Positions 34,335 through 53,247 of a stretch of 64,000 bases of DNA are shown here, piece after piece (the first letter of the stretch is position 1; each line of letters starts with the position of its first letter). The notes beneath the pieces are model-generated. The model was not told the origin of the DNA. It worked only from the letters and a program-made list of their open reading frames with translations, and searched no databases. Made by a program: the position numbers and the translations under genes. Source of the DNA: Naegleria gruberi (lineage: Eukaryota); assembly GCA_000004985.1 (NCBI GenBank), contig GG738857.1; one strand, given 5' to 3'.

Positions 34335-35500
34335 ATGCGTAAATCAACATCTGAAAAAACTCTTCCAGAAACAATCAACATAAAAAACCCATCCGAAGAT
34401 GAAAAATCCACTCTCCAACAACAAGATTGGTTTTGTGAATTAGTTTCAACCTACACAGAGCACAAGATAAACGCACTTGAGAAGGAAAATCAAAACCTAA
34501 TCCAAAAGTTGTTGGCTCTAACAGTTGATCAACGCTATATTAAATTTCTTGAATCTATTCCTTCATTGATGCAAAAACAACAAGAGCACAACAAACAAGG
34601 AAACTCTGACAATGAGTACAAAAAGTTAAACGAGAAGCTTGATGAAGTAATTGATGATTATGAGGACGTCAAGAGGAAATTAAAAAAAGCAGAAGAGAAT
34701 GCAAAAAAACCAAAGATGCTTTTGTTGAACAGCACTATTATAATGAAGAGAATATTAAAGAAATCACCAGGAAAGAAGAGAAGGTACGTGAAGAATTGGC
34801 TACCTTGAATGGAAAGTACCTTTATGAAAAGGAATCGTTCTTGAAACAAGTGTCCGAGTTAACAAAAGAAAGAGATCAACTAAATGATCAAATTTCAATT
34901 TACAAAACTCGAAATGATCCTGCCTTGCTGATGAATGACTTTTCTGATAACACAGTCAAAAAGATACATGATGAATATGTCACTTTGAAATCACACGATT
35001 TGAATTCTTTTGTGGGAAGAGTAGTTGAAGAACATTCATTAAGTGAAGATCAGGAATTTGATTTTGATTTAAAAATTGTTGCATTTGCATTCAAAACAGT
35101 CCGTAAACTCATTGAAGAAACCTATTCTGAAATGAATTTCGAACTAATTGGCAAGAAACTTACAAATGAAGAATCAGAAAGAAACCGCCTTATTGAAACC
35201 CTCGTCCAGACAATTGCAAAAATGGAAGAAATTGGAAAGAACAAGAAATTACAACAAGCTGCCAGAGAATTTATAACCAAACTCGTGAAATTCTATTGTA
35301 ACATGTTTCTCATTGATAAGAAGCTTGAATTGGTTTGGGCTTCAACTGGATCTCTCTACAATCCTGAATGGTACGATTCAAGAAATGCAACCAGTAACAT
35401 TGTAGTCACTAATGTTTTCAAACCTGCTCTCATGGACACATTCACCAAAACAGTCTACGAAAAAGGAATTGTTGAAACTACCCAAAAAAGGAAAAAATAA
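34335..35500 (+). CDS. Coiled-coil protein with conserved C-terminal domain (cluster family member 1); 1-nt frame break
   Basis: ATG 34335 (CAAAAAATG context). Frame A reads ...VKRKLKKAEENAKK, then frame B reads TKDAFVEQHYYNEENIKEITRKEEKVREEL... The switch is at the A7 run 34703..34709. The C-terminal domain begins 'KTRNDPALLMNDFSDNT' and ends '...LELVWASTGSLYNPEWYDSRNATSNIVVTNVFKPALMDTFTKTVYEKGIVET'. Confidence 0.65.
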
Positions 35501-35522: not shown

Positions 35523-38500
35523 TTATATTAAAACTCTCTTGTATGTAATTAAATATTCAGGATAGCATTGATTCCTATCATAGATAATATATTCATTGTA
35601 GGTGTGTTGTGATACCGACTTGGATCTTCCAATAACACTGTCATAAACTCTTCCATTTGAGTTTTCAATGACAGGTGGTCTTCTTTCATTTCTCATCTTT
35701 TCCCTTGTTTTGAAAACCATCTGACCTAACAGAACTCTACTGAGAAATATAAAACACTCACCATCCTTATTCGAAACACAATATTGATCACTCTTACTAC
35801 AGCAATCAGCAAAGTATATTCCAGCTCCAAACAAACCACTCAAAGCACTCAATCTTTCATCAAAGCCGTGTTCTGAAATGATTGACTTGACTACTTCTGT
35901 TGTTCCATGCCATAAATAAACTTCATTCACATTGGAATCTAATTCACACATTTCGTCAACAAAATCATTTCTAATTGGTATATCCATTACCTTCTTTTTA
36001 TCCTTATAGGAAATTAGGTGTTTCTTCTTTGATAGATACATTTCATAAAGTGATAAATTCTCAATTCTTTCCACTTTTAGAACTTGTAACTTGTTATATG
36101 GAAATGAATCTTTTTCATGGTTTCGTTTCTTTCCTAATGTAATTGTTACACATGTCTTATCCAATAAATCTTGAATATCCTCTTTTAATTCAGCGGTAAC
36201 ATCTATAATTGACATGTTATTTTGATTTGATTTCCAATAGGAAGGCTTTTGTTTCGTTTCCTTTCTTCTTGTCCCACGAAAGAATTCATGTCTTAATAAC
36301 TCAGATGCAGATAAAGTACAAATTTCTTCACGAATATTAATTGAGTCCATTAGCGTTTTCAAAAGAGATGAATATTCATCGAGTCGTTCCATTGACATGA
36401 TGTCAATTACCATTTTCACGAAACAAAACATTTCTTTCTGGAATGGTAATTTGTTTCCCTTTTCCTCTATTTTCACAACATTATCAAATCCATCCAATAT
36501 TAATTTAACTTGTTCATCTTCAATAATTTTCACATACACATTCGCAGCTCTAATATTTCCATGAACAAATGAATAGGTATGAAAATGATGAATGGCTGAA
36601 AGAATCTGAAACCAAATATCTTCCCATCCTGATCTAATGGATGAAAAATCTTTCAATGTTCCAATTGAGTAATATGGCATAACAATACAAAGTTTATCTT
36701 GACAAAGATAAAATCCAATTAATTCTGCAATATTTGAATGTTTGATTTTCTCTAGAATTTCAACTTGTTCAATTACCATTTCAATTTTATCCAATGAATA
36801 TTGTTTAACACGATAGAAAATATTCGAATTCTTATCAACTGCCTCAATAAGCATATAATTCAGAAATGCAGTTTCACTAATTGTAGTCAATTCCAAAGTG
36901 CTTACATCTTGAATTCCTATAATTTCTGATAGTAAATCATAGAATCCTGATCGATAGAGTGTAATTGATTTGTTTCGAATATCATTTCTGTTAATTTGAA
37001 GAGTTTCGAGTTCAGTTTCTTGTTCCATAATTTTTAGACAGGGCGCAGTTGATGTTGAGTTGTTTGTTTCCCACAATTTTTTCTCAATTTCAATTGATCT
37101 TTTGCGTGCTTCAATGTTCTCACTCATTAATTTGTAATTAATTCCATATTTAGAAATATCAAATTTAGAAATTATTGTTAAAGTTAATTGCATATTTTTA
37201 AATTCATTACAGATGGTAGTAATATTATTGATAAAATCAAGGCAATTATTTTTCATATCATCAATAAAGTAGCAATATCCTTTCAATTTCTTTTTCAATA
37301 AATGATACAATTCCAAATTTGGATTTTCTTTCAATAAGGAAAATAATTTTGAAATGGAATCTCCAATATCATTTGTATCATTGCTTATTTCTGAAAATTC
37401 AAGTGTTGAAATATTACTTGAAAAATTTGAAAGAAAATTTGCAACTCCACTCAATTGCTTATTACATGTATTAATCCATTTCTCCAAATTAGTCGAATAT
37501 TCTTCAAATGTTAATTCCAATTCTTCATAATTCGATATTTCATTACATGGAATTTCTTCTCCACCATTCAAAAATTCATTAATTTCTTTAGAAATTTCAC
37601 TCAAACTCTTTACAAATTCAATAAGAAAATTTCCATAATCACTTTTCTTAATTTGATTATTCATTGATTCATGGATTTGAAATTTGCTTCGAAATTCAAT
37701 TAAATCTTGAGGATTTTGTGATGAATAAATCGATTTTGAATTAATTTGGATAGGGCTGAGAAGATTCTTAATATCTGTAAACTTTTTCATGTCATATTCG
37801 TTAATTATGATATTTCTAATAAGTCTATCAGTGGTAAATCTTATAGTTTCCAATTGATTTTTCCTATTTTTGTATTCGAAACCTAATTGGGAAAGCTCTG
37901 TAAATATTGATGCAAAATGAATGAATTTAATTTCTATTGGAGATGTGCTAGTAGATGCTTGACTCACTTCTACATTAATTTCTTTTGTTTCCACATTAGT
38001 CTTATTTCTTTTTTCAGATTTCATTTCCTTTTGAATCGTTTTTATGGATTTCCCGCCACATTTCAATGCTATTGATATTTTGATATTAGGATGTTCTAAT
38101 AATAATTTTCACAATTTCAATTTTATCTCTTTCGCAAGCAACTTGCAAAGGTGTTTTAACCTTCCAAAATTGGTAAAATAAAAACTTGCAAATTAATACT
38201 TACCATCTTTAATCTTAAAACTCAATTAATTAAATATCAAACTTACATTCTGAATAATTCAATAAATGTATACTCATCATTAACAAGTTACTTACACCCT
38301 TATTAACATCCAATTCATTTGATTCCAATAATAATTTCACAATTTCAAGATGACCATCATAACATGCAATAAACAAACAAGTTTGTTCTGATTCTACACC
38401 ACAAAATGTCTTGAATAACAAGCTAATAAGTATTCATTTTGCTTCAAATCATACTTACTTCATTGACATTGACAAGTGACAGTAAATATTTGACAATCTC

Positions 38501-38800: not shown

Positions 38801-40432
38801 TTAATTCTTTTTTGACACTCTGACAATTACTTTTGCCTTCTCATAAATACTTCTCGATTGCAACTGCATTAGGGATGGAAAGACTGTGCACTGAATCTTT
38901 GGAATGGTTGTGTTATTTCTTGCATCTTGTTCGTATGGATTAAAATTGTCCTTTGCTTTATACCAAACGAATTCCAACTTTTTTGAATTGGTAAACATTT
39001 TCATGTAGAGTTCAATTGCCTTATCAAGTAATTCTGAGGTTAGATTACTAACTTCCCGATCTCTACAAATATGCTCAGGATTCTCAACTTTGAATTTGTT
39101 GAAAACGTGTTCAATGGAGGTGAAAATCTCATTGTGGCAGCTTTTGAGTAGTTTTTTCTTATCTGAATCTTCCAATGGCTTGCATCCATAACCTAATTTC
39201 TTGTCTTTCAATCTGTGTTGTAATGATTTGCCCTTATTGTCGTCTTGAGCTGGTGAAAAGAGGTATTTGGCTAATTCCATTTCAATTTCACATTCAAAAT
39301 CTTGTGCTACATCATCTCCATTAAGATTTTCACTCATTTCTTCACAAAGAGAACCCAATGAATTCTTAATTTCAAAATAAGCATCCTTAATTGACTTGGT
39401 GGTATTGTCGGAGAAATTGTTCATCTCAAGAGCTGGATCATGTTCTGCTTTGACAATTCTAAAATTATCTTCAAGTTGAGCAATCTTTGATTCTAAACCA
39501 TTTTTCAGTTCGATTAGTGCTTCTTTTTCTTTCTCAAATCTTGATTGGTTTTCACTTGCTTCGGTTCTCATTCTGTTTTTATCCTTTTCCAGATTTGAGA
39601 TTTTACTTTCAAGAGATTGAAGGTTTGCCTGGAGTTCAAGTGTGTCATTTTTAAGATCCTTATTATCACTTCTCAAATCTTCAAGCTTTTTGGTTGTATT
39701 TTTGTGGCTGTCTTGTTCAGTCTTCAACTTTTGTTTAGTTTCATCATGTTCACTTCTCAATTTGTTGAAATTCTTTTCTAAAGTGTCCTTTTCCTTCTTG
39801 AGATCTGTAAATTCTTTTTTCTTTGTATTCAATTCAGTAATCTTTTGATCTTTTTCACTAACCAATTGCTTTTCACGGTTCTGCAAATCATCATTTTCTT
39901 TCTTTAATTTCTTCTCATTATCTCTTGCTTCATTGCTTTCTTTGGTTAATTTTTTAATTCTTTCATCTTGATTTTGGGATTTTTCTAATGAGATTGATTT
40001 AAGGAATTCAACAAGTTTCTTATCAACTTGTACAGTGTCTAATATGTCTCTTAATCTGTCAACTTCCTTGGTATGCTTTTCTGACTCTTCCTGGATGTGG
40101 TTAACTTTGTTTTTTTCCTTATCAAGATTACTTTGGAGAATAGAAACTTGTTTTCTTTGACTCTCTAAATCTTGTTTAACCTTGTCAAGTTCGTGTTGGA
40201 GGATTTGTGCTACATTCTTTTCCTGGTCCCAATTACTTTGCAGATTGGAGGTTGTTAGCTTTTCTTTATTAAAGGCCTCTTCAATTGACTTGAGTTGAGT
40301 TTGAAGTTGTGAAATTCTTTTTTGATAATGGGAGGGATCTACTTCTTGTGTTGGGGGTGGAACATCACTTGTTGGTTGTTGTTGGGGTTTGATGGTGGAT
40401 GATGGTTTATTTGAATTGGATTCGTTTGTCAT
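38801..40432 (-). CDS. Coiled-coil protein with conserved C-terminal domain (cluster family member 2)
   Basis: I place the start at ATG 40432 (AAAAAAAATG context), not the track's non-ATG start at 40528. A long heptad-rich K/E/Q/L region is followed by 'KAEHDPALEMNNFSDNT...LEFVWYKAKDNFNPYEQDARNNTTIPKIQCTVFPSLMQLQSRSIYEKAKVIV'. Confidence 0.75.
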   Translation of the reverse strand: MTNESNSNKPSSTIKPQQQPTSDVPPPTQEVDPSHYQKRISQLQTQLKSIEEAFNKEKLTTSNLQSNWDQEKNVAQILQHELDKVKQDLESQRKQVSILQSNLDKEKNKVNHIQEESEKHTKEVDRLRDILDTVQVDKKLVEFLKSISLEKSQNQDERIKKLTKESNEARDNEKKLKKENDDLQNREKQLVSEKDQKITELNTKKKEFTDLKKEKDTLEKNFNKLRSEHDETKQKLKTEQDSHKNTTKKLEDLRSDNKDLKNDTLELQANLQSLESKISNLEKDKNRMRTEASENQSRFEKEKEALIELKNGLESKIAQLEDNFRIVKAEHDPALEMNNFSDNTTKSIKDAYFEIKNSLGSLCEEMSENLNGDDVAQDFECEIEMELAKYLFSPAQDDNKGKSLQHRLKDKKLGYGCKPLEDSDKKKLLKSCHNEIFTSIEHVFNKFKVENPEHICRDREVSNLTSELLDKAIELYMKMFTNSKKLEFVWYKAKDNFNPYEQDARNNTTIPKIQCTVFPSLMQLQSRSIYEKAKVIVRVSKKN

Positions 40433-40454
40433 TTTTTTTAAAGACGTACGAAAA

Positions 40455-40536
40455 TTTGACGAGTTGTAATGTAATTTTGAAACCTGCATTCCGTGTTCCG
40501 TTCTGTGAATTGACGAGTCATCATTCACTTGTCAAA
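40455..40536. promoter_or_regulatory. Divergent promoter with repeated TTGACGAGT / TGTCAAA motifs
   Basis: The 134-nt region between ATG 40432 (-) and ATG 40567 (+) contains TTGACGAGT at 40456..40464, GTGAATTGACGAGTCA at 40505..40520 and TGTCAAA at 40530..40536. Confidence 0.4.
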
Positions 40537-40566: not shown

Positions 40567-41778
40567 ATGGGATTCTTTGGGTTTTTCAGTGATGACAATA
40601 AAGAAGAAATAAAGAAGGAGTTGAAGGCGGCAAAGGAACAAATTGAATACCAAAAGAAAGAGGTAGAAAGCCAGCGAAACAAAATTATAACATTAGAAAC
40701 AAATAACACCAATTTGCAAACTAGAAACACAACTTTACTCCAAGAATTTAAAATTTTAAACCCGAAACTTGAAAAATTAACACTTGAAAAACAAAATTGC
40801 GAATATATTTCCTCTCAATATCAAGCAAAAGCACAAGAATTGAACAAGAAATTACAAGAACTCGACAAGCAGTACAATTCCACTGTTCAAAATCTCAACA
40901 CTGAATTACAATCTTGTAAATTTCAATTCAATCAAGCAATCACTGAGTGGAAGCAAGAGAAGAACAAATTTGAATTAGAATTGAAAAGTGTAAAACAATC
41001 AAGAGATCAACAAATTTCTTATTCCACTCAATTACATTCAGCATTGACTGAAGAAAGAGAGAATTTCATAAACTTGTCCCAAACCAAAGAACAAGAAATT
41101 GAAAAGTTGAAAGCTGACATTATTTTAATCAAAGCTCAAAATGATCCAGCACTTGTTGTCAATGATTTCTCAGATGAAAGTCCTAAACAAATTAGAGATT
41201 TGTATCTTCAATCAAAATCAAGTATTGACACTTTGACAACAACCTTGGAAGACAATTTGACAGAAGATGAACAAGAACAATTGGAAATTATTATAGCCAA
41301 GACACTCTTTGAGAAATTAGAAGAGACTGTTATGAAATTTGTGTGTGAAACAAAACAAGTTGACAGCAGTGATAGAAAGCTCATTGGTGAATTATTGAAA
41401 TCAGATATTGAAATGAGAAAGCTTGTTATTTATCATACTTCAGTTGGATTAATGAATCAAATTAAGGAACAATTTGCCAGTTTTAGTAATTTTATTGAAA
41501 ATTGTAAAGATGAAGAAAGAATTCAAATTCAAAATGAAATTGACACAATGTCAACAAGTTCAATTTCAATGCTAGCAATGATCTTGAGAAATGAGCAAAA
41601 TATTGGTTTCGTTTGGTATAAACCAAAATCAGATTTCAATACTTTAGAACAAAGATCAAGAAATGCTGATAAGAAAATTGTAATTGATACTTGCATTTAT
41701 CCTTGTTTAATGTTGAAGGGATCAAGAAGTGTTTTTGAACAAGCAGTTGTTACAACAAAATTAACAAAACACAAATAA
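40567..41778 (+). CDS. Coiled-coil protein with conserved C-terminal domain (cluster family member 3)
   Basis: ATG 40567 (AAAAAAATG context). Coiled-coil N-terminal half, then 'KAQNDPALVVNDFSDES...IGFVWYKPKSDFNTLEQRSRNADKKIVIDTCIYPCLMLKGSRSVFEQAVVTT'. Confidence 0.75.
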   Translation: MGFFGFFSDDNKEEIKKELKAAKEQIEYQKKEVESQRNKIITLETNNTNLQTRNTTLLQEFKILNPKLEKLTLEKQNCEYISSQYQAKAQELNKKLQELDKQYNSTVQNLNTELQSCKFQFNQAITEWKQEKNKFELELKSVKQSRDQQISYSTQLHSALTEERENFINLSQTKEQEIEKLKADIILIKAQNDPALVVNDFSDESPKQIRDLYLQSKSSIDTLTTTLEDNLTEDEQEQLEIIIAKTLFEKLEETVMKFVCETKQVDSSDRKLIGELLKSDIEMRKLVIYHTSVGLMNQIKEQFASFSNFIENCKDEERIQIQNEIDTMSTSSISMLAMILRNEQNIGFVWYKPKSDFNTLEQRSRNADKKIVIDTCIYPCLMLKGSRSVFEQAVVTTKLTKHK

Positions 41779-41994: not shown

Positions 41995-43871
41995 ATGAGC
42001 ACCAGCACCCTCATCAAACCACAAGCAGGTAAAAACTTTGTCGTTTGCATTGACTTTGGATCTTCAGGTTCTGGCAGTTCAATTCTCTTCGTAAAGGATG
42101 AAGATAAAATTTTCACTCTCAAAACTTATCCAGACTCCCCTAACGTAGTTTACAATAAGAATATGTCATGTATTTTATATGAAGATGGTAAGAGACATAG
42201 TATTGGTTATACTGCTAGAAAGACAATGTTCTTTGAAAATGATGACGAAGATTCAGATGAAGATTCCGGTGAAGATTCGGATAGAGATTCAGATAGTGAA
42301 AGTGAAGAATCTCATGGATCAACTTCAACTGCTCCATCAAAAAAATCAGCAACTCCACTAAAAGATAGAAAATTTATCAGAGATTTAAAAATTCAATTCA
42401 TGGAAGCAACAAAAGATGAGAAGGAAATTTCAATTCCAGAAATAGTAATTTCCAATGATGGAACAACCAAATCTTTACTTGATGTGATGGCAGATTACTT
42501 ATCCATGTTATTCACAGATTTTATCATGAAGAGTTTAAAGAATAACGATAGCTCTGTTAAGAAAACTGATGTTCGTTGGTGCATTACAGTTCCCGCCAAC
42601 TATTCAGAACATCAAAAATCCCTAATGAGGAAAGTGGCATGTAAGGCAAAGATTATAGATAAGGAAAATTGTGATGAGAGTGATTTGATTATCATTTCTG
42701 AACCAGATGCTGCTACCATGTTCTGTATGAAACATAAGGCTAAATCTAAACCACTTACAAATGGTGAAACTTTTATGGTAGTTGATGCTGGTGGTGGTAC
42801 TGTAGATGGTAAGTTTGAGAAATTCTTGATTTAACATTTAAATTCTGTAACAGTCAGTTGTCATATGCTTGAAAATGGTAAATTGAAAGAGTTGGCAGTT
42901 CAAAAGGCAGAGCTATGTGGTTCTACATTTATTGATAGAGAATTTATTAAGATTTTAGAAGAAAATTGTGATAATTTCAAAGAATTTACAGAGAAAAATC
43001 CAGAAACTCTTGTCAAGATATTATCAATTTGGGAAGATGTTAAGAGAGGTACTTTGACAGTTGACAAGAAATTGACATTTGACACATCTCCAATGTTTAA
43101 AAAAGCAAAACCTAATAGTTCAATTTACAAATCAAGATCTACCAAGATTGCATTAACAGATGAACAAATGAAAAGAATATTTGACAGTCAAGTGTCAAAA
43201 GCACTCAAATTGATTGATGAAGTTTATAGAGATTATGAAGAAGATTATCCAAGTAGAAAGATGGATCACTTATTTATTGTTGGTGGTTTAGGAGATAATG
43301 GTTATTTCCAAAATCGTATTAAGGAAAGATTTGAAAAGAAATTTAAGGAAATTTTAATTCCACTTTTCTGTTCGACAGCTGTCATGGAAGGAGGTGCATT
43401 ACTTGCTAAGGATCCATCATTCGTTCAAGAAAATCAAAGTTATCATATGGTGTTGGTGTCATGGAAGAATTTGAAGAAGGGCATCATGCTGAAAGCAAGT
43501 ACAAGGTCATTAATGGTAAACATATGGCAGTTGACGTGTTGGATGTTTTTGTTGAACAACGTGAAGAAGTTGAAATTGATAGAGAAATTGTTAGAGAATA
43601 TGAATGTTTACCAGGTGCTACTCAAATTGATGTTGTTCTCTATTCATCTATTAAGAGAAGAGAAGCAATTCCTTATATTGATTCACCACTAGTTTCTAAA
43701 GAGGAAACAATTACAATTCCTTTTAGAGATTCATCAAAGGAGGCAGATAGAAGAGTTTTTATTAAATTCTTCTTTGGTAAATCAGAATTAATGATTACTG
43801 TTGAAAATGCACAAGGTGAAGTTAAGGAAATTAAGAGAGATTTTGAAGCAAACTCACTTGCCCTAAAATAA
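41995..43871 (+). CDS. HSPA12-type Hsp70-like ATPase (paralogue 1); 1-nt frame break
   Basis: Exons 41995..42808 and 42854..43871, with a 45-nt intron (phase 1). The junction GGGTVD|VSCHMLE matches GGGTVDLTCHKFE in the paralogue. Motifs: VVCIDFGSSGSG; WCITVPANYSEHQK; IISEPDAATMFC; FMVVDAGGGTVD; LFIVGGLGDN. The frame changes at the A4 run 43430..43433, after which the second frame gives ..SKLSYGVGV, aligning with RMRMTYGVKA in the paralogue. Confidence 0.75.
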
Positions 43872-44116
43872 ATAGTTGAAATTCCATTCACAAAAATCTT
43901 AATATTTATTAGTATGAGCGAAATATAACCTCAATATCATTATTACAATCTGATCTTTTTCGTTTATCAAAACTGTAGAAAGCTTTTTTTGAACTGTAGT
44001 CACTCTCGAATCGTGATTCATTGTAAAACTTGTCAAACTTACCGATCAGAATTCCGTATGACGTACGATTTCTCATTTCTCATCAGTTTATTCTGTTCCA
44101 TTAACACACAAAAAAA

Positions 44117-46556
44117 ATGTCATCATCAACTGTTCCTGTTCGTTCAGGTTCCCTCAACAAGAAGAAAGTTGTCATTTCCATTGATTTTGGTACATCAAGA
44201 ACTGGTTTCTGTTATTCACTCACCAATGATGTGAAAAAGACTCGAGTTAAGAATACCTCATGGAAAGATGCACCAAGTGGAGTTTCATTCCCAAAGACTC
44301 TCACTCAATTACTTTATGAAAAGAGTGATACAAGAAAACCTGTTGCTTGGGGTTACACTTCACTTGACATGTTGTCAAGAGAATTTGAAGATGAGAGTGA
44401 ATCTGATGAAGATGAAGAAGGTGGTGAAGAGATTCCAGCACAAAATAGCAAGTATTATCATTTCAAGACATTCAAAATGGGATTATTCAATAATCCATCT
44501 GGTATGGTGAAGGATACAACTGGTGTTTTTGAAAAGAATGTTGGTGAATTGATAGTTGACTATTTGAAATTATTATTCCATGATCAGATTAAGCCAACTG
44601 TTGAGAAATCATTGGGATCTAAATTGAATCTTGATGAAGTTACTTGGTGTTTAACAGTTCCAGCCATTTGGAAAGATGAACAAAAATCAGATATGAGATT
44701 AGCTGCTTACACTGCTGGTTTAACAAAGACACCTGAAGCATCTTCTGATGATTTTAAGATTATTCTTGAACCAGAAGGAGCTGCTGCTTATTGTATGGAA
44801 TATCAAGCTTCTAAAGGTAAACCATTGAGAGAGGGCGAATCATTCCTTGTTTGTGATCTTGGTGGTGGTACAGTTGACTTGACATGTCATAAATTTGAAA
44901 AGGCAAGATTGAGAGAATTAGCTGAAGGATCTGGTGATGCATGTGGTTCTACATATTTAGATGATGCTTTTATTATTTATTTGGAAGAATGTTTTGGTAA
45001 GAAATTTGTTGAAACCTTAAGGAAAAAGTATGGCCAAACTTATTTGGACATTTTAAAGATTTGGGAAAGAACAAAAGTTACAACAACAGATTTAACAAAA
45101 GATATTAATGTTGATATGCCTGGTCAATTAAGTAGTTTTTTAGAAAGTGCCAATGTTAAAAGTGATAAATTCAGAGCTAAAAGAGGTCAACTCAAAATTA
45201 CAAGTGAAGCTTTACAAACAATTTATCAAGATTCATTAGAAAAAACAAGAAATCTTGTTGAAAAGCAATTAGAAACAATCCAATCAGAGACTGGTAAAAT
45301 GGTTGATTATATTTTCATAGTTGGTGGTTTTGGTGCTTCCAAAGTAGTTCAAAACTTTCTAATTGACAATTTCTCTTCACAAGTTAAGGGAATTGTAATT
45401 CCAAATGAACCTGCTGAAGCTGTTGTTGATGGTGCTGCATTATTAGGTATTGATGATTCATTAATTTCAACACGTAGAATGAGAATGACTTATGGAGTTA
45501 AAGCTCAAAAAGGAAGTGAAGAAATATTCGATACTTTTGTAATTGCTAATCAAGAACTTGAAGTTGATCAAGGAATTTCAAGAGAATACAAAGTTCAAAG
45601 AGCTAATCAACAAGCTATGAAAATAATCATCTACAGCACTAAATTGAAATCAATTACAAAAGTTGACGAAACTAAATGTCATAAGATTGGTGAAATTCAA
45701 GTACATATGACAGATATGACAGGTGGCATGGATAGAATAGTGAAAGTTACAATGTATTTTGGTAGATCAGAAACTAGAGTTACTGCCATTGAAAAGAATA
45801 CTGGAATTGAGTATAGTGCATTAATTAAGTATGATGGTGAATTATTTTCACATGGTGAAAGTATTGCTGACACTCCACCAGTTCAACCTCACCATTTGTA
45901 AGTATAGAATGTTATATTGAAGTTTACAATTTCTAACTGTTAAAAGAATTTTTGCAAATGATGTTTCAGGATCAATGTGGGCAAGAGATGCTTTACCAAC
46001 AATGAGTTTACTTAAAGTAAGTATTCTTCCATGATGTTTTTTACTAATATTCAATTAGACCTCTCATAATAACAGAGTAGGAGCACTTTATGAAGCATGT
46101 TATGCCTTTTTAGAAACAAGAAAAGAAACTTCAGATATTTCATCGTGTATTCTTCATAATCATGATTCAATCATTATTTATGATAAAAAACCTGCAACTC
46201 CATCACTTGTTTCTGATTACATGATGAAATATAATGCCGACGGTGGCAACAACTTTTTAAAAGTATTCGAAACTGTCGAACAAGTTCTCAAATCGAGTAA
46301 TAACGAGGAATTCAAACCAATAGTTTTCTTTATGACAGATGGTGCTTGGCACGACGACGGAGCACCTGCCTACTTGGAAGGCTTAATGTTAAGATATCCA
46401 GATTTAACAGTTCATGTCATTAATTTGGGTAGTTCAATTAATTTTGAATTGATGAATAGAATTGCAAAGATTGGTAGAGGAACCATTTCAACATCTGGAA
46501 TGAGCGCTGTAGAATTGAAGAGTACCTATCTCAGCTTGCTTCCTTACTTGGATTAA
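44117..46556 (+). CDS. HSPA12-type Hsp70-like ATPase fused to a C-terminal von Willebrand factor A (vWA) domain
   Basis: Exons 44117..45897, 45947..46016 and 46059..46556, with introns of 49 and 42 nt (phases 2 and 0). ATPase motifs: VISIDFGTSRTGF; WCLTVPAIWKDEQKSDMRLAAYTAGL; ILEPEGAAAYC; FLVCDLGGGTVDLTCH; IFIVGGFGAS. The vWA MIDAS motif DVSGSM appears only after splicing, and a later FFMTDGAWHDDG follows. Confidence 0.8.
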
Positions 46557-46659: not shown

Positions 46660-48539
46660 CTACCAATTTGGTTGTGGATTTTTAGTTCTAGATTGATATT
46701 TTCTATCAAACATTTGATATAAATAACCTTCACACATTCCTTGTACTTTGTTGAAATGACATCTAACAAATGGATCAATTTTAGATGCTAAAATAGTTCT
46801 CTTAACATTTGGTCCTAAAATTGGTAATAAGAATTTCTTAAACCACCAATTACCACCTTTAGCATCTAATTGTAAATCAACCATTGTTGCCATAATATAT
46901 GGTGGAATATAAATTCTATAAACACGTGTTTGGAACTCTTCAAATGTTTTGTAATCAATTGTAGAAACATCTCTTCTTAAAATTTCATCTAAAATTAATT
47001 GACATTCTGTCATACATGTAACACCTTGTCCATAGACAGGATTTAATGATCCAACTATTTGCAATTAGTTAATGAATTAATCAATTAGTCAATTAGTAAA
47101 TGAATCAATCTTAATAAATCTTAATAAAATTGCTTACCTGAATCACCAAGTGCAAGGAAATTTTCAAGAACATGTTGATTTCCATTTTCATCCTTATATT
47201 GTGTAATCTTTTCCCAATGATTTAAAACAGTTCCATCCTTCTTATAATTTGACCAATCAATAACTGGACCTTGTTCTAAATCACAATGTTCAAAGAATAA
47301 TTTAGTCTTTTCTGAAATATCAGGTGAAACCTTACTTAAATAATCAATACAATCTTCATGATTCTTAATTTTAACACATTCTGGATTTTTACTACCAGTT
47401 TCACCAATAATAAACATTCCCTTATCTTGTGAAACTCTATAGTAAATCATACCACTTTTAGTTGGAAAACCAACATTACCAATATATGCCCAAACAGGTG
47501 TTTTACCATCTTTTTTAAAGAATCCATCTTGCATATTTGGATCTTTCAATTTGTAAATTGCTGAAGTGTAGGTTGTTGTGAGAATAATCTTACTCTTTTC
47601 CATTTCAAATTTTCTATTAGAATCTTTGGAAAATTCTTCTTCAACCCAAATTGGTGTTTGAGTTGTTAAACCTGAACAATCAATTACTAAATCTCCATAA
47701 ACTTGTTCACCTTCTTGTAATTTAACACCTTTAACACGATGAATAATTTTAGAATCTTGTGTTTGAACCTTTTCAAATATTAAACCACTAACTGTTTGAT
47801 CATCTCTGAATTGAATTTTACCCAATGGTGATGAATTTTCATCAATAGTACTACTATTATTACTACTATTATTACTATTACTATTATTATTGGTGTTGAC
47901 ATTAGTTGAAGTAGATGATTTTCCAATTAATGATGAAGAATTCTTATTAATATTCATAATTAAATCTCTAATATAAGATTCAATTTGATATCTTGTCATT
48001 TGATAACCAGGTGGACAAATAGTTTGACCTTCAATTAAACCACATAATTTATCAGATTTACCATCAATGGCAGCATAATCTGTATTTTCAATTAAAATTT
48101 TAAAAGCTCCCATCTTTTCAATTTCATTAATAAAATCAATATTTAAATAACCACCAAATAATTTCTTGAAAATTGTAATACATCTCAATAAAAAAATGTG
48201 AGTTTGAGTTCCTTGTGGAGCAGTTGACTATTACAATAATATTTAATATTAAATATTAAATTACAATATTTAACATACCTTGTTAGTTTCATATCTCTTC
48301 TTTTCAAATAAAATAACATTTTCAAAATGGAAACAAGCATTGAGTGCAGTTGTAATACCACCAATACTACCACCAATAATAATACATGTACCTTTCTTTT
48401 TCTTATCTGAAACTTGTCCAAGTTTAGAATTTTCCAATTTGACTTGAGCATCAAAGAATGGTTTAATATTATTTAACCAATAATAATAGGCATAACATGG
48501 AAGTGCAACTAGTGCAGACAATGCAAGATATCCTAACAT
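46660..48539 (-). CDS. FAD-dependent oxidoreductase/monooxygenase-like protein with N-terminal membrane anchor
   Basis: Exons 48279..48539, 47138..48227 and 46660..47054, with introns of 51 and 83 nt. Motifs: TM anchor MLGYLALSALVALPCYAYYYW; Rossmann CIIIGGSIGGITTA...VILFEKK; PQGTQTHIFL; and the GD motif split by an intron, LALGDS|VGSLNPVYGQGVT. An Asn/Ser-rich insertion is present. Confidence 0.7.
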
Positions 48540-49413: not shown

Positions 49414-50790
49414 TTAGTAACTTTCTATTACACACGCTTTTAAAGATGAAATAATTATTTCAAATTGTTGTGAACAATTAATATTATGATTTCTTTCTTT
49501 GCAAAATTCAATTAATGGAATAAAATTAGCAAGAAAATGAGTTGTAAAAAGAGATCTCTCACCAATTTCAGTTTTAAATTCATTCTCCAAATTGCTAGAA
49601 TCACAGCAATCGTCACAAATATCAAATGAATCATAACCATCCACTGTTGATTGATAAAATCCTGAACATGTTTGATCACATATTTTACATGTCTTTGTTG
49701 ATTCAATTTTAAAAATATCAAAATTATTTCCATACTTTTGTTTCATGTTTGGAATCAAGTTACTTATTTCTGATGGTAAATGATTTAATAATTCAAAATA
49801 TTGTAAAAATTCAACAATACTTCTTCCTACACATGTCAATTTGTGATCATTTAGGTATGATTTGATTAACCATTTTAGTGATTCTTCCATATTTGGCAAT
49901 GTACCAACACCAACACAATACATGTAAGCTACTCCATATTGTGCAAAGCAATAGTTTTGTTTGGCTGATTTTAACAACCATTCAAGTCCAAGTTTTAAAT
50001 CTTTTTCATAATATTCACCAGAATAGTAATAAATACCAATCCAATATTGAGCTAAACAATTTCCATTTCCAGCAGATTTGAAATACCAATCTGTTGCTTT
50101 TTTGAACTCTTCATTAAGTCTATAATGTCTAGCGAGTTTATGTTGATATTTACTATTTCCTAATTCAGCTCCTTTTAAAAGCCATTTTTCTTTCATTTCT
50201 GATGAATTTTTGTTTAATTTTTTCATTTTCTTTATGGCAGGAAAATAATTTAATTCTGCTGATTTTTCCAAAAATGTAATATCCTTATTATATAAATAAA
50301 TTAAATAGTTAAAAATTGGATTATTGGTTTGTTTGGCACATTTTTTATAAACCTTGTTCAATTTAATTCTACTTTTAATATTTGGTAAATCAATTTCAAA
50401 TTTTTTTAATTGTTTAATAATTGAATTTGGAGAAATAATTAATTTTTCCAATACTTTTAAACTAAAATCACCACTTAAATATAATTTTTCCAATTTTGTA
50501 AATAATTTACAATTAAAAATAGTTTTTAACATTTCAGTATTTACATTATTAAAACTACATTTACAAATTTGTAATACTATTTGACTATTACAAAATTTTT
50601 CCATATCCGAAAGTGAAACAAAACGTGTAGAAACCATTTTCAATTTTAAATAGTAATAAATAGACATATCAGACCAATATTTACAAACAAGTCTATGAAC
50701 CAACCATTCATTTGGTAGATAACTTGAAATGTGTGCTAAAATCTCAGGTGGAATTTCATCATTGAAATTTCGTTTTGATAAATTAGACAT
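49414..50790 (-). CDS. F-box / Sel1-like repeat protein with C-terminal Cys-rich (ZZ-like) zinc-finger motif
   Basis: Single 458-aa ORF. F-box IPPEILAHISSYLPNEWLVHRLVCKYWSDM; Sel1-type repeats (GNSKYQHKLARHYRL..; GNCLAQYWIGIYYYSG..; NYCFAQYGVAYMYCVGVG); C-terminal CKICDQTCSG...FDICDDCCDS. Confidence 0.75.
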   Translation of the reverse strand: MSNLSKRNFNDEIPPEILAHISSYLPNEWLVHRLVCKYWSDMSIYYYLKLKMVSTRFVSLSDMEKFCNSQIVLQICKCSFNNVNTEMLKTIFNCKLFTKLEKLYLSGDFSLKVLEKLIISPNSIIKQLKKFEIDLPNIKSRIKLNKVYKKCAKQTNNPIFNYLIYLYNKDITFLEKSAELNYFPAIKKMKKLNKNSSEMKEKWLLKGAELGNSKYQHKLARHYRLNEEFKKATDWYFKSAGNGNCLAQYWIGIYYYSGEYYEKDLKLGLEWLLKSAKQNYCFAQYGVAYMYCVGVGTLPNMEESLKWLIKSYLNDHKLTCVGRSIVEFLQYFELLNHLPSEISNLIPNMKQKYGNNFDIFKIESTKTCKICDQTCSGFYQSTVDGYDSFDICDDCCDSSNLENEFKTEIGERSLFTTHFLANFIPLIEFCKERNHNINCSQQFEIIISSLKACVIESY

Positions 50791-51212
50791 TTTTTTTAAA
50801 GTTGATCAAAACTCCACAATTTCTAATTCTATTAATAAAAGTGCAAAATCACCATCACGTTTATCACGTTTTGTCAAGTTAGAAAGTTCCAACTCAATTT
50901 TATTTAAATAAAATTTCATTGTTTTTGAATATTACTTAATCATTGAGAGTTGATGAAACCAGGCTTCAATACATGTCTTAATGAGCCTTCCGAGTTCTCG
51001 CATTGGATTAAAAAAATTGTTTAATATTCTTTACAATCCATTCAACAATGAAGGCTTGATTGAAAGGCTTTCATGAATTAGAACTCATGAACTTGATATT
51101 AATATCATTAGAAAAAATATCTTTTCATCATCAACTACCACTCTCTTGTAGAAATATTCATCATCCGATCACATCAAAGTAGTACTGATAGAAACAATTT
51201 GCTATTTTGTTC

Positions 51213-52668
51213 ATGGGTAATAAATCTTTTAAACAAGCGAACAACAAATCAATTTCATCAACAAGTTTATCATCACAACCCAATTCCAATTTTAATAACA
51301 ATAACAACAACAATAATAACATGTATCAAAGAAATACTCATCATCTTAGAACTGGTGGGAAGAGTGTAGTTTTTGGTTGCGGATATAATTCAGCATCATT
51401 ACTCGGAGTATCACACTCTGATGTTGAAGATAATGGAGTTCATGGATCAAATTCCTTTTCTCAAGATGTAACACAATTTGTTTTCTTATCAACATTACAA
51501 GAATTATTGAATAATGATTCTCCTGGACAACATGTTTGTCAAATTGTTGTTCAATTTTCCAAAACCTACTTTTTAACATCTCATGGTCATGTCTATACTT
51601 CATTTCCATTAGCAAGAGATGTTCAATTTGATAGTATTTTACCTGATCGTGTTGTGGAAATGAGATCAGGACAGAATAGAACATTATTTAGAACTGAATT
51701 TGGTCAAATTTATGTAAAAGCAGATGGTCCACTCTCTAAAATTACTGGAGTTACTAATACACAAGTAAATAATGTAAAATTATTTGGAGTTGGTGGTTTA
51801 CATTACTGGTTATTAGATGATGAAACTAATCGTTTATATGGTGAAGGAGAAATTAATGGAGCTAGTGTTGAAAAAGTTATAGAATTGAATGATTATTTAC
51901 AGAAAGATGAAAAAGTTAGAGATATTGTTACAGGTGGTAATTCGTATGTTTTTTTTATTTCATTTTATAGTAACAATTATATATAACATTGTTTAAATAA
52001 TGATGAATTGAAATTTGAAATTTGATAATAGATTTGTTTTAATAACAAATAAGAATAATATTTATGTATATGGAGAGAAGGAAGCTTTTGGATCAACAGT
52101 TGATGAACATTATTCTAAACCAACAAGATTAAGACAATTTGATGGAATGGTAAAATCAGTTGTTTGTGGATGGTATTTTACAATTATTTTAACATTTAAT
52201 GGACAATTATGGATGGCAGGTAGAAATACATATCAACAACTTTCATCTAAAAATCTATCATCTCATGATAATGTTGTTCAATGGTTTATAGATGATTCAT
52301 TAGTATTAAATCCAAATGAAGAAATTGATCAAATTGGATCTGGATCAGATCACGTTTTAATATCAACAACAATTGGAAGAATTTTCACAAGAGGAATGAA
52401 TACATATGGTCAACTTGGTAGAGATAATAGAACTCAATCTGGAGTATTTATGGAACCAAGTTTTAAAAATCAAAATTACAAGGAAATTATTTCTAAATTT
52501 GTTGGACCAAAATTTTCAATTTCATTTGCAGATAATAATTTTAATACTTTAAGTTCCTTTTTAATTATTCATTCAGTTAGAGAATCAAAGGAACTTATTC
52601 AAATGAGATCAAAACTTTTAAATTGTTCAAAACAATCTTTATTATCAGATTTAGTAATTTTACATTAA
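51213..52668 (+). CDS. RCC1-repeat (regulator of chromosome condensation-like) protein
   Basis: Exons 51213..51943 and 52032..52668, with an 88-nt intron (GTATGT..TAG, phase 2). RCC1-like blades: VVFGCGYNSASLLG; GGLHYWLLDDETNRLYGEGE; IYVYGEKEAFGS; GQLWMAGRNTYQQL; GRIFTRGMNTYGQLGRDN. Confidence 0.7.
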
Positions 52669-53247
52669 AACATTTTAATTTATTATTTAATATATTATTT
52701 TGATGATTGTAAAGTTAAAATGATGATCATGTGAGGATTAGTTATTATTGATTCAAGTCATTAGAGATAGATGAATAATAATTGATGAAATTTGAATGAA
52801 AATTTATTGTTTTTAGAATGTACTGTCAACATAATTTTTCCATAAAAGTAACAATTGTGAATCTTCGTAATGTTAAATATCAAAAATCAAAAACTGATTG
52901 ACGTTGTGTAAAACCAAACGTCATCAAAAATCGACTCGTCATTAAAAAAAATATCTGAACAGCTCTTAACAATAACAATCATCATCACCTGTTTCTGATA
53001 ATAAAATTATTATTATTTGATTATTATCGGTTTCTAATAACAATAGAGGTTAAGTGGCAGTAGAGTAATATAGAAGTTTTTTATAGAAGGAGTAGAAACA
53101 AATCATCATCATCATCATCTCTCTCCAGTTACTCACTCCATAACTATATTGTTATCATCATCAATATCATCAATTTATTATTATTATTAATAATATTAAA
53201 TAGTGTACATATTACAATAATAATAATAATAATATTAAAAAATTAGA

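What the first reader, a model, noticed from the sequence alone, without database searches (positions are those of the whole stretch)
41995..46556. Tandem HSPA12-like ATPases, the second fused to a vWA (MIDAS) domain through two tiny introns
Both genes carry the HSPA12-type motif set (IDFG.S..G, TVPAIWK-like, EPE.AA.YC, D.GGGTVD). They lack a canonical Hsp70 substrate-binding domain. In the second gene, splicing introns of 49 nt and 42 nt joins the ATPase in frame to a vWA domain. Its MIDAS motif DVSGSM lies in a 70-nt exon that the ORF track misses. An Hsp70-like ATPase covalently coupled to a vWA adaptor is an uncommon fusion.
Basis: partly seen in the sequence, partly recalled or inferred. 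Interest (0 to 1): 0.6.

Follow-up and report, generated by a model that had tools for sequence, protein, structure and literature searches.

The report
Hsp70-like ATPase–vWA fusion gene cluster
In the amoeba Naegleria gruberi, two neighbouring genes for unusual Hsp70-type ATPases (one really spliced to a vWA docking domain, as already annotated) sit beside three coiled-coil genes resembling the Hsp70 cofactor GrpE, and bacteria keep the same ATPase–partner pairing as an operon, which points to a cofactor for the poorly understood HSPA12 chaperone family.

Summary
The window is Naegleria gruberi.

The fusion of an Hsp70-like ATPase to a vWA domain is real:
- Relatives encode it as one uninterrupted ORF.
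- One relative keeps intron 1 at the same codon and phase and lacks intron 2.
- A Flabellula transcriptome-assembly ORF carries the same fusion.
- The C-terminal domain models as a vWA fold at pLDDT 90.6.
- The MIDAS residues DxSxS and D are invariant, but the MIDAS Thr is Asn.

- Gene 1 is broken by a 4-nt deletion relative to a 98%-identical environmental strain.
- Gene 2 keeps a lid-less SBDβ-like domain.
- The nearest bacterial relatives pair with a different partner, not with vWA.

New finding: in 60 of 82 bacterial loci the next gene downstream encodes a coiled-coil protein with a GrpE/MIEAP-like C-terminal domain. Three homologues lie just upstream of the two ATPase genes in this window. 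The same cluster occurs in Acrasis kona and in another heterolobosean contig.

Likely mechanism (inferred): the ATPase is cycled by a GrpE-like partner, and the vWA domain docks it onto a target.

The gene model is already known. The fusion family and the cluster appear undescribed.

The parts
41995..42808 (+). Gene 1 (HSPA12-like ATPase) exon 1: start codon, phosphate-1 motif CIDFGSSGSG, acidic insert, TVPANY, SEPDAA, VDAGGGTVD
   Evidence: Identical to the N-terminal part of the annotated protein P0121.
42809..42853 (+). Gene 1 intron, 45 nt, GTAAGT...AACAG
   Evidence: The 98%-identical contig L003 has a 46-nt version, so a 1-nt indel is tolerated here.
42854..43871 (+). Gene 1 exon 2, interrupted by a frameshift. 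The frame before the lesion runs on to a stop at 43692; the conserved frame resumes and ends at the stop at 43871.
43416..43421 (+). Site of the 4-nt deletion in gene 1 (ATC|ATT here, ATCATATATT in L003). The annotated model P0121 bridges it with an implausible 59-nt 'intron' at 43381..43439.
44117..45897 (+). Gene 2 exon 1: Hsp70-type NBD (aa 1-447), lid-less SBDβ-like beta domain (aa 450-570), disordered linker (aa 573-587)
45898..45946 (+). Gene 2 intron 1, 49 nt, phase 2, GTAAGT...AAAAG. The in-frame TAA is formed by the 5' splice site itself.
   Evidence: Same position and phase in L004, where it is 65 nt. Absent in L001/L002.
45947..46016 (+). Gene 2 exon 2, 70 nt: first beta strand of the vWA domain and the MIDAS DVSGS (45960..45974)
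46017..46058 (+). Gene 2 intron 2, 42 nt, GTAAGT...ATTAG, contains an in-frame TGA
   Evidence: The junction is continuous coding sequence in L001, L002 and L004.
46059..46556 (+). Gene 2 exon 3: rest of the vWA domain (GGNNF in place of GGT; MTDG MIDAS Asp) and the stop codon
38801..40489 (-). CC1: coiled-coil protein with a GrpE/MIEAP-like C-terminal domain (...FNPYEQDA...FPSLM...YEKAKVIV), transcribed divergently from CC2. The start codon is approximate.
   Evidence: A profile containing no N. gruberi sequence scores it E=3.2e-10 among 297 window ORFs. hhalign against the bacterial partners gives 96.7% probability.
40567..41778 (+). CC2: paralogue of CC1 with the same architecture. The likely start is MGFFGFF.
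   Evidence: (E=1e-6)
34336..35500 (+). CC3: third paralogue. It needs a frame change between 34664 and 34808, which remains unresolved.
   Evidence: E=1.4e-6; Pfam MIEAP E=1.2e-4, 22.6 bits against a cutoff of 27

Best explanation
The locus is a Naegleria gruberi gene cluster at about 34.3-46.6 kb, built around HSPA12-type (lid-less, divergent) Hsp70-superfamily ATPases.

Shown:
- Gene 2 encodes one 782-aa cytosolic polypeptide. It has an NBD with the full Hsp70 catalytic motif set, an SBDβ-like beta domain without the helical lid, a roughly 15-residue disordered linker, and a C-terminal vWA domain.
- In the vWA domain the MIDAS DxSxS and Asp are invariant, but the MIDAS Thr is Asn.
- Two GTAAGT...AG introns of 49 and 42 nt join the parts.
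- Gene 1 is a 32%-identical paralogue without vWA. In this assembly it is disrupted by a 4-nt deletion.
- Immediately upstream lie three paralogous coiled-coil genes. Their C-terminal domain is homologous to the protein encoded directly downstream of HSPA12-like genes in bacterial operons.
- That domain resembles the C-terminal beta domain of GrpE and the Pfam MIEAP domain.

Inferred mechanism:
- The coiled-coil proteins are dedicated GrpE-like partners, most likely nucleotide-exchange or regulatory factors, that drive the ATPase cycle of the HSPA12-like proteins.
- The beta domain holds a client.
- The flexibly tethered vWA domain uses its metal site to dock the ATPase onto an acidic residue of a specific target or assembly. 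This is analogous to vWA co-chaperones of MoxR AAA+ ATPases.
- The vWA is a swappable C-terminal module. The same subtype is appended to GBP/URGCP-like GTPases in other protists, and the Acrasis counterpart of gene 2 carries a different C-terminal domain.

My confidence is about 0.95 for the gene and domain architecture, about 0.8 for the conserved ATPase-partner linkage, and about 0.35 for the specific exchange-factor and docking mechanism.
For: Gene model:
- The spliced product equals P0001.
- Orthologues are collinear across both exon junctions.
- L001 and L002 encode the fusion as uninterrupted ORFs.
- L004 has intron 1 at the same codon and phase and no intron 2.
- A fused ORF is in the Flabellula baltica transcriptome assembly; a further fused sequence comes from a 'merc' record whose sample type I did not verify.

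Domains:
- Pfam HSP70.
- Invariant D23/K120/E218/D247/GGGT/GG across 45 relatives.
- Alignment to DnaK motifs.
- Full-length AF2 model at pLDDT 89.7, with only residues 1-10 and 573-587 disordered.
- Foldseek aligns 575-615 columns to NBD+SBDβ structures, including lid-truncated DnaK and BiP.
- vWA. MIDAS conservation.

Family breadth: 19 further 50%-identity cluster representatives among the top 150 vWA hits carry an Hsp70-like region next to the vWA (upstream of it in all but one, P0257). Named sources: Willaertia, Flabellula, Anaeramoeba.

Partner linkage:
- 60 of 82 bacterial loci have a family member immediately downstream on the same strand.
- A profile without N. gruberi sequences picks exactly three of 297 window ORFs (E=3e-10, 1e-6, 1.4e-6; the next best is 0.39).
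- A bacteria-only profile picks the two coiled-coil genes flanking the fusion gene in L001.
- Acrasis kona L088 has ATPase, ATPase, CC, CC in a row.
- hhalign of the eukaryotic against the bacterial partner domain gives 96.7% probability, E=3.5e-10.

GrpE/MIEAP likeness:
- Pfam MIEAP hits 10 of 25 members (best 3.9e-6) and GrpE hits 10 of 25 (best 0.0015). No other family is hit by more than one member.
- CC3 scores MIEAP E=1.2e-4.
- GrpE chains take 5 of the top 7 PDB ranks, all aligned at the C-terminal beta domain.

Analogy: MoxR-vWA chaperone/co-chaperone pairs are described in PMC7159879.
Against: - No RNA-seq or protein data for N. gruberi were available, so splicing rests on comparative evidence.
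- The GrpE similarity is below significance for every individual hit (PDB E>=0.035; Pfam below the gathering score). CC1 and CC2 themselves hit neither GrpE nor MIEAP directly.
- Exchange-factor activity is pure inference, and no J-domain protein was seen nearby.
- The MIDAS lacks its Thr in the Naegleria/Acrasis-like clade, so metal-dependent ligand binding may be weakened.
- No partner gene lies within 10 kb of HSPA12-like genes in a chytrid or in Clytia, so the linkage is not general in eukaryotes.
- I could not count how many MIEAP-like paralogues N. gruberi has, so chance proximity in this one genome cannot be quantified.
- Relative domain orientation is not established (pTM 0.71 only).
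Confidence: 0.55

Rival explanations
1. The vWA segment is a separate gene or transcript. Gene 2 ends at the TAA at 45899 and gives a 594-aa ATPase, so the fusion is an annotation artefact.
For: The unspliced reading frame does stop at 45899..45901 and would give a protein about the length of gene 1. No transcript data for N. gruberi were examined.
Against: - The MIDAS strand lies in a 70-nt exon that has no start codon upstream of the motif.
- Orthologues are collinear across both junctions.
- L001 and L002 encode the fusion in one ORF.
- L004 conserves intron 1 in position and phase.
- A fused ORF is present in the Flabellula transcriptome assembly.
Confidence: 0.03
2. The proteins are not chaperones in the folding sense. 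They are NTP-driven switches of a conflict or innate-immunity-like system. The Hsp70-like module acts as the regulated switch, the variable C-terminal module (vWA, or another domain in Acrasis) acts as the effector or assembly domain, and the coiled-coil partner acts as a scaffold rather than an exchange factor.
For: - The same vWA subtype ends large GBP/URGCP-like GTPases, some with SAM or kinase domains.
- Bacterial relatives are concentrated in filamentous or multicellular bacteria. They sit beside SpoVK-like AAA+, a second Hsp70-like gene, nSTAND3-Schlafen and WD40 genes. This matches the kind of context described in PMC7159879.
- C-terminal domain swapping occurs in Acrasis.
- A kinase-PARP gene lies inside the cluster.
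- One HSPA12-like protein in bivalves carries a Death domain (P0096).
Against: - No recognised effector or sensor domain is present in the two N. gruberi ATPases.
- No expression or infection data exist.
- The catalytic Hsp70 motif set and the SBDβ-like domain are intact, as expected for a working chaperone-type cycle.
- This reading overlaps with the best explanation more than it excludes it.
Confidence: 0.25
3. The proximity of the coiled-coil genes to the ATPase genes is coincidental, for example because the family is large and locally duplicated in heteroloboseans. The coiled-coil proteins would have no functional tie to the ATPases.
For: - CC1 and CC2 hit no Pfam family directly.
- The family's copy number in N. 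gruberi is unknown.
- No linkage is seen in the chytrid or Clytia loci.
Against: - The same pairing occurs as a tight same-strand operon in 60 of 82 bacterial loci from several phyla.
- It recurs in three heterolobosean genomes with different gene orders.
- Homology between the eukaryotic and bacterial partners is supported at hhalign E=3.5e-10.
Confidence: 0.1
4. Gene 1 is a genuine, recent pseudogene in strain NEG-M, not an assembly error or one allele of a heterozygous site.
For: - There is a 4-nt deletion relative to the 98%-identical L003, at a TATAT-like microrepeat rather than a homopolymer.
- The annotators needed a non-consensus 59-nt 'intron' that deletes conserved NBD residues to keep the frame.
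- No N. fowleri orthologue appeared in the search.
Against: - Between the window and L003 there are 12 synonymous and 7 nonsynonymous codon differences. That implies purifying selection until very recently, including downstream of the lesion.
- No other stops or indels disrupt the frame.
- A single-assembly error or allelic variant cannot be excluded with these tools.
Confidence: 0.4

Closest known systems
Vertebrate HSPA12A/HSPA12B (atypical Hsp70s) and the 'HSPA12-like / actin-like ATPase domain-containing' proteins of invertebrates, fungi and Streptomyces
   Same: - Divergent Hsp70 NBD with the IDFGTS / TVPAxW / EPEAAA / DxGGGTVD motif set.
- No alpha-helical lid.
- The best named hits of both genes are HSPA12A/B-like proteins (25-28% identity, E about 1e-34 to 1e-44).
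- The function of the family is stated to be unknown in PMC13580251.
   Different: - Gene 2 has a C-terminal vWA domain that HSPA12A/B lack.
- The closest relatives are actually bacterial (32-35% identity).
- Orthology to the vertebrate genes was not tested by phylogeny.
MoxR-type AAA+ ATPase with vWA co-chaperone (e.g. RavA-ViaA, and the BchI/BchD and midasin arrangements; the named examples are from my own knowledge, the general pairing from PMC7159879)
   Same: An ATP-driven remodelling engine is coupled to a MIDAS-type vWA domain that provides metal-dependent binding of the target. In some cases the two are in one polypeptide.
   Different: - The engine here is an Hsp70/actin-fold ATPase, not a AAA+ ring.
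- No MoxR gene is present.
- The resemblance is functional analogy only.
DnaK-GrpE (Hsp70 with its nucleotide-exchange factor)
   Same: - An Hsp70-fold ATPase is genetically linked to a protein with a long coiled coil and a small C-terminal beta domain.
- That domain carries an F-[DN]-P-x-x-H-E ... P-G-Y ... K-A-x-V pattern.
- It aligns with the C-terminal domain of GrpE and GrpEL1.
   Different: - The similarity is sub-threshold.
- The partners are much longer (about 300-650 aa), with extended coiled coils.
- No DnaJ-like gene is linked.
- The ATPase lacks the lid.
- Exchange activity is untested.
MIEAP / SPATA18 domain family (Pfam PF16026)
   Same: The C-terminal domain of the partner family matches the last ~55-95 positions of the MIEAP profile (positions 100-195 for CC3, 140-195 for the bacterial L005 partner) in 10 of 25 members (best E=3.9e-6). 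CC3 scores E=1.2e-4. The coiled coil plus C-terminal domain layout is shared.
   Different: - Scores are below Pfam's gathering cut-off for the N. gruberi proteins.
- No paper in the searchable library links MIEAP to GrpE or to HSPA12.
- Animal MIEAP biology (mitochondrial quality control) was not examined here.
Intracellular vWA domains such as BatB, Rpn10 and TFIIH p44/Ssl1
   Same: These are the best structural matches of the modelled domain (TM 0.64-0.77). Rpn10, TFIIH p44 and the present domain are cytosolic/nuclear, without a signal peptide.
   Different: - Sequence identity is only 11-18%.
- None of them is fused to an Hsp70-like ATPase.
- The nearest sequence relatives are C-terminal vWA modules of protist GBP/URGCP-like GTPases.

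Membership tests
Hsp70 superfamily (Pfam PF00012) | Score above the Pfam gathering threshold | tested here: met
   Gene 2 scores 52.8 bits and gene 1 scores 38.4 bits against a cut-off of 20.6.
Hsp70 superfamily (Pfam PF00012) | Catalytic and nucleotide-binding motifs: phosphate-1 DxG, catalytic Lys, EP(E/T)AAA, DxGGGT(F/V)D, adenosine GG | tested here: met
   D23, K120, E218/P219, D247, G249-T252, D254 and G403/G404 are invariant or nearly so in 45 relatives. They align with the DnaK motifs.
Canonical Hsp70 (DnaK/HSPA8 type) | SBDβ plus alpha-helical lid and a C-terminal EEVD or other lid tail | tested here: not met
   The AF2 model has a beta domain at 450-570, then a disordered linker and the vWA domain, with no helical lid. 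The best Foldseek matches include lid-truncated DnaK and BiP. Sequence similarity to DnaK is only E=1e-6.
HSPA12 subfamily | Nearest named relatives are HSPA12A/B rather than canonical Hsp70s | tested here: met
   Named hits are HSPA12A/B(-like) proteins of fish, birds, a mite, a cnidarian and bivalves. No canonical Hsp70 appears in the lists.
HSPA12 subfamily | Orthology or monophyly with animal HSPA12A/B in a phylogeny | not tested
   No tree was built. Bacterial proteins are closer (32-35% identity) than animal HSPA12 (25-28%).
HSPA12 subfamily | C-terminal region matching Pfam PF27033 (DUF8340) | tested here: inconclusive
   A precomputed PF27033 hit is recorded for gene 1's annotated protein P0121 and for many relatives, but not for P0001. 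My Pfam scan returned no PF27033 hit for either gene.
vWA domain (PF00092/PF13519/PF13768) | Rossmann-like vWA fold | tested here: met
   AF2 gives pLDDT 90.6 and pTM 0.89. There are 193 PDB matches at E<=0.001, and the top 50 listed are all vWA domains. The profile search hits essentially only vWA-domain proteins.
vWA domain (PF00092/PF13519/PF13768) | Pfam gathering score | tested here: not met
   The N. gruberi domain alone scores 18.6 bits on VWA_3 and 15.3 on VWA_2 against a cut-off of 27. Relatives P0188, P0193, P0195 and P0197 pass.
MIDAS-type vWA | Complete DxSxS...T...D metal site | tested here: not met
   D599, S601, S603 and D711 are invariant. The Thr position is Asn in N. gruberi, N. 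fowleri, P0003 and P0004, and Thr in P0005.
GrpE (PF01025) | C-terminal beta domain homologous to GrpE, at family threshold | tested here: inconclusive
   Ten of 25 partner-family members hit GrpE, best E=0.0015, below the 25.8-bit cut-off. GrpE chains take 5 of the top 7 PDB ranks at E=0.06-0.5. CC1, CC2 and CC3 do not hit GrpE directly.
GrpE (PF01025) | Nucleotide-exchange activity on an Hsp70 NBD | not testable with these tools
   This needs biochemistry or at least complex modelling.
MIEAP (PF16026) | Match to the MIEAP profile at the gathering score | tested here: inconclusive
   CC3 scores 22.6 bits against a cut-off of 27 (E=1.2e-4). Ten of 25 family members hit, best 3.9e-6. CC1 and CC2 give no direct hit.
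MoxR-vWA chaperone systems | MoxR-class AAA+ ATPase paired with the vWA protein | tested here: not met
   No AAA+ gene lies in the cluster, and the ATPase is of the Hsp70 fold. This is a functional analogy only.

The most novel reading that the evidence does not exclude
HSPA12-type Hsp70s, whose function and cofactors are unknown, have a dedicated GrpE-like partner belonging to the MIEAP/SPATA18 domain family.

The pair is ancient. It is an operon in filamentous cyanobacteria, Thiotrichaceae, Chloroflexi and actinobacteria, and a gene cluster in Heterolobosea.

It has been elaborated by swappable C-terminal modules such as the vWA domain seen here.

If the partnership holds in animals, MIEAP/SPATA18 would act through HSPA12A/B.
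Probability: 0.3. Interest if true: 0.8.

Novelty: new variant of a known kind. Interest (0 to 1): 0.5.

Why it matters
The gene model itself is ordinary. It has been in the N. gruberi annotation all along, named only 'chaperone protein'.

Two things are worth a specialist's attention:
1. The Hsp70-like ATPase fused to vWA is a conserved protist protein family in Heterolobosea, Amoebozoa and Anaeramoeba. I found no description of it. It extends the 'ATPase engine plus MIDAS adaptor' design, known for AAA+ proteins, to the Hsp70 fold.
2. The locus exposes a conserved genetic link between HSPA12-type ATPases and a coiled-coil protein with a GrpE/MIEAP-like domain.

A 2026 review states that the function of HspA12 is presently unknown (PMC13580251). 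A candidate dedicated cofactor makes that question directly testable by binding and nucleotide-release assays.

Practically, the annotated gene 1 model (P0121) is probably wrong, and the Acrasis kona model P0006 is truncated by a contig end.

Tried and rejected
- Gene 1 frameshift as a one-base loss in the A4 run near 43432. Rejected after the L003 alignment showed a 4-nt deletion at 43418|43419.
- A 17-nt or 59-nt intron rescuing gene 1. Rejected because the 5' site is non-consensus and the segment encodes conserved NBD residues that are in frame in L003.
- Exact-sequence lookup of P0001 in the contig index found nothing on record.
- Third homologue search with the vWA profile returned only three short fragments.
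- Search for bacterial Hsp70-like/vWA pairs: only one marginal vWA hit in 82 bacterial loci.
- The 5-sequence partner profile (A4) against the PDB gave no GrpE hit. The 25-sequence profiles brought GrpE to the top but not to significance.
- Direct Pfam scans of the CC1 and CC2 C-termini found nothing relevant.
- Linkage in other eukaryotes: none in a chytrid locus or a Clytia locus.
- The C-terminal domain of the Acrasis 849-aa paralogue gave only a weak ThuA-like hint (E=0.0076) and no PDB sequence match.
- Foldseek against afdb50 was unavailable.
- Literature searches for HSPA12 with vWA, Hsp70-like with vWA, Naegleria Hsp70 with vWA, MIEAP with GrpE, and MIEAP/SPATA18 with HSPA12 gave no relevant description. 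The CoCoNuT paper mentions Hsp70-like and vWA proteins only as separate operon components.
- No canonical intron was found that would resolve the CC3 frame change.

Full report
**Identity of the window and check of the observation**

The window is AT-rich (about 30-35% GC up to ~50 kb, dropping to 22-29% beyond) and comes from Naegleria gruberi. It translates to 782 aa and is string-identical to P0001, which NCBI and UniProt call 'chaperone protein [Naegleria gruberi]'. All coordinates, intron lengths (49 and 42 nt) and the 70-nt MIDAS exon are as stated. The three introns in the two genes all begin with GTAAGT, end in AG, are 42-49 nt long and contain in-frame stops.

**Is the fusion real?**

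No RNA-seq data were available, so I used comparative evidence.
- The N. fowleri orthologue (777 aa, 61% identity) and three metagenomic or Logan relatives (43-44% identity) are collinear across both exon junctions.
- In two relatives the whole Hsp70-like plus vWA protein is one uninterrupted ORF on a genomic contig: L001 174..2519 and L002 1399..3888.
- In a third relative (L004) an intron of 65 nt sits at exactly the same codon and phase as intron 1. There is no intron at the position of intron 2, and splicing gives one ORF running from the beta domain into the vWA domain.
- The same architecture occurs in three Willaertia magna proteins, a Flabellula baltica transcriptome-assembly ORF, Anaeramoeba flamelloides proteins, and a sequence from a 'merc' record of unverified sample type.
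- Of the 150 best 50%-identity cluster representatives that carry this vWA subtype, 19 besides the query also carry an Hsp70-like region. It lies upstream of the vWA in all but one (P0257, reversed order), usually across a linker of roughly 10-25 residues.

A separate-gene reading is therefore very unlikely.

**Domains of gene 2**

- Pfam HSP70 is significant (E=2.7e-14).
- The catalytic and nucleotide-binding residues (D23, K120, E218, D247, GGGT, D254, G403/G404) are invariant or nearly so across 45 relatives, and they align with the DnaK motifs.
- A full-length AlphaFold model built on a 45-sequence alignment has mean pLDDT 89.7. It shows an NBD (to about residue 447), an all-beta domain (450-570), a disordered linker (573-587) and an alpha/beta domain (590-782).
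- Foldseek aligns 575-615 columns to two-domain Hsp70 structures, including lid-truncated DnaK and BiP. The fit is best to ATP-bound, docked forms.

So the protein keeps an SBDβ-like domain and lacks only the helical lid.

The C-terminal domain is below Pfam threshold on the N. gruberi sequence alone. A 7-sequence profile hits essentially only vWA-domain proteins in the PDB. The domain model has pLDDT 90.6, and its top structural matches are BatB, ITIH4, TFIIH p44, Rpn10 and vWF-A1. The MIDAS residues D599, S601, S603 and D711 are invariant. The MIDAS Thr is Asn in the Naegleria and Acrasis-like sequences and Thr in P0005.

**Gene 1**

Gene 1 is a 32%-identical paralogue, not a recent duplicate. 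It cannot be read through. Relative to a 98%-identical metagenomic contig (L003), which encodes ...DPSYIRSRKSKLSYGV... in frame, the window lacks 4 nt between 43418 and 43419. The annotated protein P0121 (590 aa) restores the frame with a 59-nt 'intron' at 43381..43439, starting GTCATG. That removes conserved NBD residues, so I regard the model as a workaround. Between the window and L003 there are 12 synonymous and 7 nonsynonymous codon differences. The gene was therefore under purifying selection until very recently. Whether the lesion is a real strain mutation, one allele, or an assembly error cannot be decided here.

**Where the vWA module comes from**

A full HMMER scan with the vWA profile found 646 cluster representatives at E<=1e-10. 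Besides the Hsp70-like fusions, the best hits are C-terminal modules of very large proteins. These carry GBP/URGCP/RHD3-like GTPase domains, sometimes with SAM or kinase domains. One example is a 2397-aa Gefionella okellyi transcript. The vWA is thus a mobile C-terminal module attached to different NTPases.

The closest non-fusion relatives of gene 2 (32-35% identity, closer than animal HSPA12 at 25-28%) are bacterial. A scan of GTDB species representatives returned 80 loci. They come from filamentous cyanobacteria, Thiotrichaceae, Chloroflexi, Myxococcota, Acidobacteria and many actinobacteria.

No vWA gene accompanies them. Instead, in 60 of 82 loci the ORF immediately downstream on the same strand encodes a coiled-coil protein with a conserved C-terminal domain of about 60 aa.

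The two divergently transcribed coiled-coil genes directly upstream of gene 1 in the window have the same C-terminal pattern. These are CC1 (38801..40489, minus strand) and CC2 (40567..41778, plus strand).

I ran three tests that avoid circularity:
- A profile built only from bacterial partners plus two L001 proteins picks exactly three of 297 window ORFs. These are CC1 (E=3.2e-10), CC2 (1e-6) and a third paralogue, CC3, at about 34336..35500 (1.4e-6). The next best score is 0.39.
- A bacteria-only profile picks, among 393 ORFs, only the two coiled-coil genes that flank the fusion orthologue in L001.
- Profile-profile comparison of the five heterolobosean domains against 16 bacterial ones gives 96.7% probability and E=3.5e-10.

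In Acrasis kona (L088) the order is HSPA12-like gene, second Hsp70-like gene, then two such coiled-coil genes. The pairing is therefore conserved in bacteria as an operon and in three heterolobosean genomes as a cluster. It was not seen within 10 kb of HSPA12-like genes in a chytrid or in Clytia.

**What the partner is**

- Scanned one by one against Pfam, 10 of 25 members hit MIEAP (PF16026, best 3.9e-6) and 10 hit GrpE (PF01025, best 0.0015). No other family is hit by more than one member.
- CC3 itself hits MIEAP at E=1.2e-4, which is 22.6 bits against a cut-off of 27.
- With the 53-position domain profile, GrpE or GrpEL1 chains take five of the top seven PDB ranks. All are aligned to GrpE's C-terminal beta domain, but at E=0.06-0.5.

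The layout resembles GrpE: a long coiled coil, a helical region and a small C-terminal beta domain. I call the domain GrpE/MIEAP-like. The homology to GrpE is suggestive but not established. I found no paper linking MIEAP to GrpE or to HSPA12.

**Mechanism**

Shown:
- The architecture of the two ATPases.
- The intact catalytic motifs.
- The tethered vWA domain with a conserved DxSxS/D site.
- The conserved genetic linkage to the coiled-coil family.

Inferred:
- The coiled-coil proteins act as dedicated GrpE-like exchange or regulatory factors for the HSPA12-like ATPases.
- The beta domain binds a client.
- The vWA domain docks the machine on a target through its metal site, by analogy with MoxR-vWA chaperone/co-chaperone pairs (PMC7159879).

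The main rival is a switch or effector reading. It draws on the multicellular-bacterial distribution, on neighbours such as SpoVK-like AAA+, nSTAND3-Schlafen and WD40 genes, on the GTPase-vWA relatives, and on the different C-terminal domain in the Acrasis paralogue. That reading overlaps with the main one, and I give it about 0.25.

**Verdict**

The Hsp70-like plus vWA family and, more interestingly, the HSPA12-like ATPase plus GrpE/MIEAP-like partner cluster appear undescribed. They give a concrete, testable lead on a chaperone family whose function is unknown.

Noticed in passing
window 43381..43439 and 43418|43419: The annotated gene 1 protein (P0121, 590 aa) bridges a 4-nt deletion with a non-consensus 59-nt 'intron' that removes conserved NBD residues. 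A 98%-identical environmental contig (L003) is intact here.
   Followed up: yes
window 34336..35500 (+): The third coiled-coil, MIEAP-like paralogue (CC3) needs a change of reading frame somewhere between 34664 and 34808. I found no canonical GTAAGT intron. The cause may be an indel in an A-run or an unrecognised intron.
   Followed up: partly
window 35523..38066 (-): An 847-aa ORF combines a partial protein-kinase domain with a PARP catalytic domain (Pfam PARP E=2.4e-25). It lies between CC3 and CC1, inside the cluster.
   Followed up: no
L088 12017..14563 (Acrasis kona): The second Hsp70-like gene of the equivalent Acrasis cluster is 849 aa. In place of vWA it ends in a different domain of about 230 aa (weak ThuA-like hit, E=0.0076). 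The shorter model P0006 is truncated only because its contig ends.
   Followed up: partly
L002 2..1441 (-): A second HSPA12-like gene lies head-to-head with the fusion gene in this relative. It is 30-34% identical to all the others and runs off the contig.
   Followed up: partly
P0198, P0202, P0206, P0242, P0245 (representative library): The same vWA subtype forms the C-terminus of 1300-2600-aa proteins with GBP/URGCP/RHD3-like GTPase domains. P0198 adds an N-terminal SAM domain and P0242 adds a kinase domain after the vWA. Named sources are Gefionella okellyi (P0198), an MMETSP transcript (P0202) and an Adiantum genome record (P0206); the sources of P0242 and P0245 were not looked up.
   Followed up: partly
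L007 1460..11224; L022 8608..11379; L030 7887..8789: Bacterial HSPA12-like/partner operons sit next to a two-domain SpoVK-like AAA+ protein, a second Hsp70-like gene, an nSTAND3-Schlafen-HEAT protein or a WD40 protein. The taxa are mostly filamentous or multicellular bacteria.
   Followed up: partly
window 42230..42310 and 44385..44435: Both ATPases carry a strongly acidic Asp/Glu/Ser-rich insert at the same place in the N-terminal part of the NBD (DEDSDEDSGEDSDRDSDSESEE and EDESESDEDEEGGEE). These could be ligands for a MIDAS site. This is pure speculation.
   Followed up: no
window 32144..33826 (+), 49414..50790 (-), 46660..48539 (-): Other neighbours are a BBS1 homologue (Pfam E=3.5e-76), an F-box plus Sel1-repeat protein, and a multi-exon minus-strand gene with a GxGxxG start and a weak Trp-halogenase-like hit.
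   Followed up: no
window 50000..64000: GC content drops from about 30-35% over most of the first 46 kb to 22-27% here. The region holds a 1886-aa ORF (53248..58908) that I did not examine.
   Followed up: no
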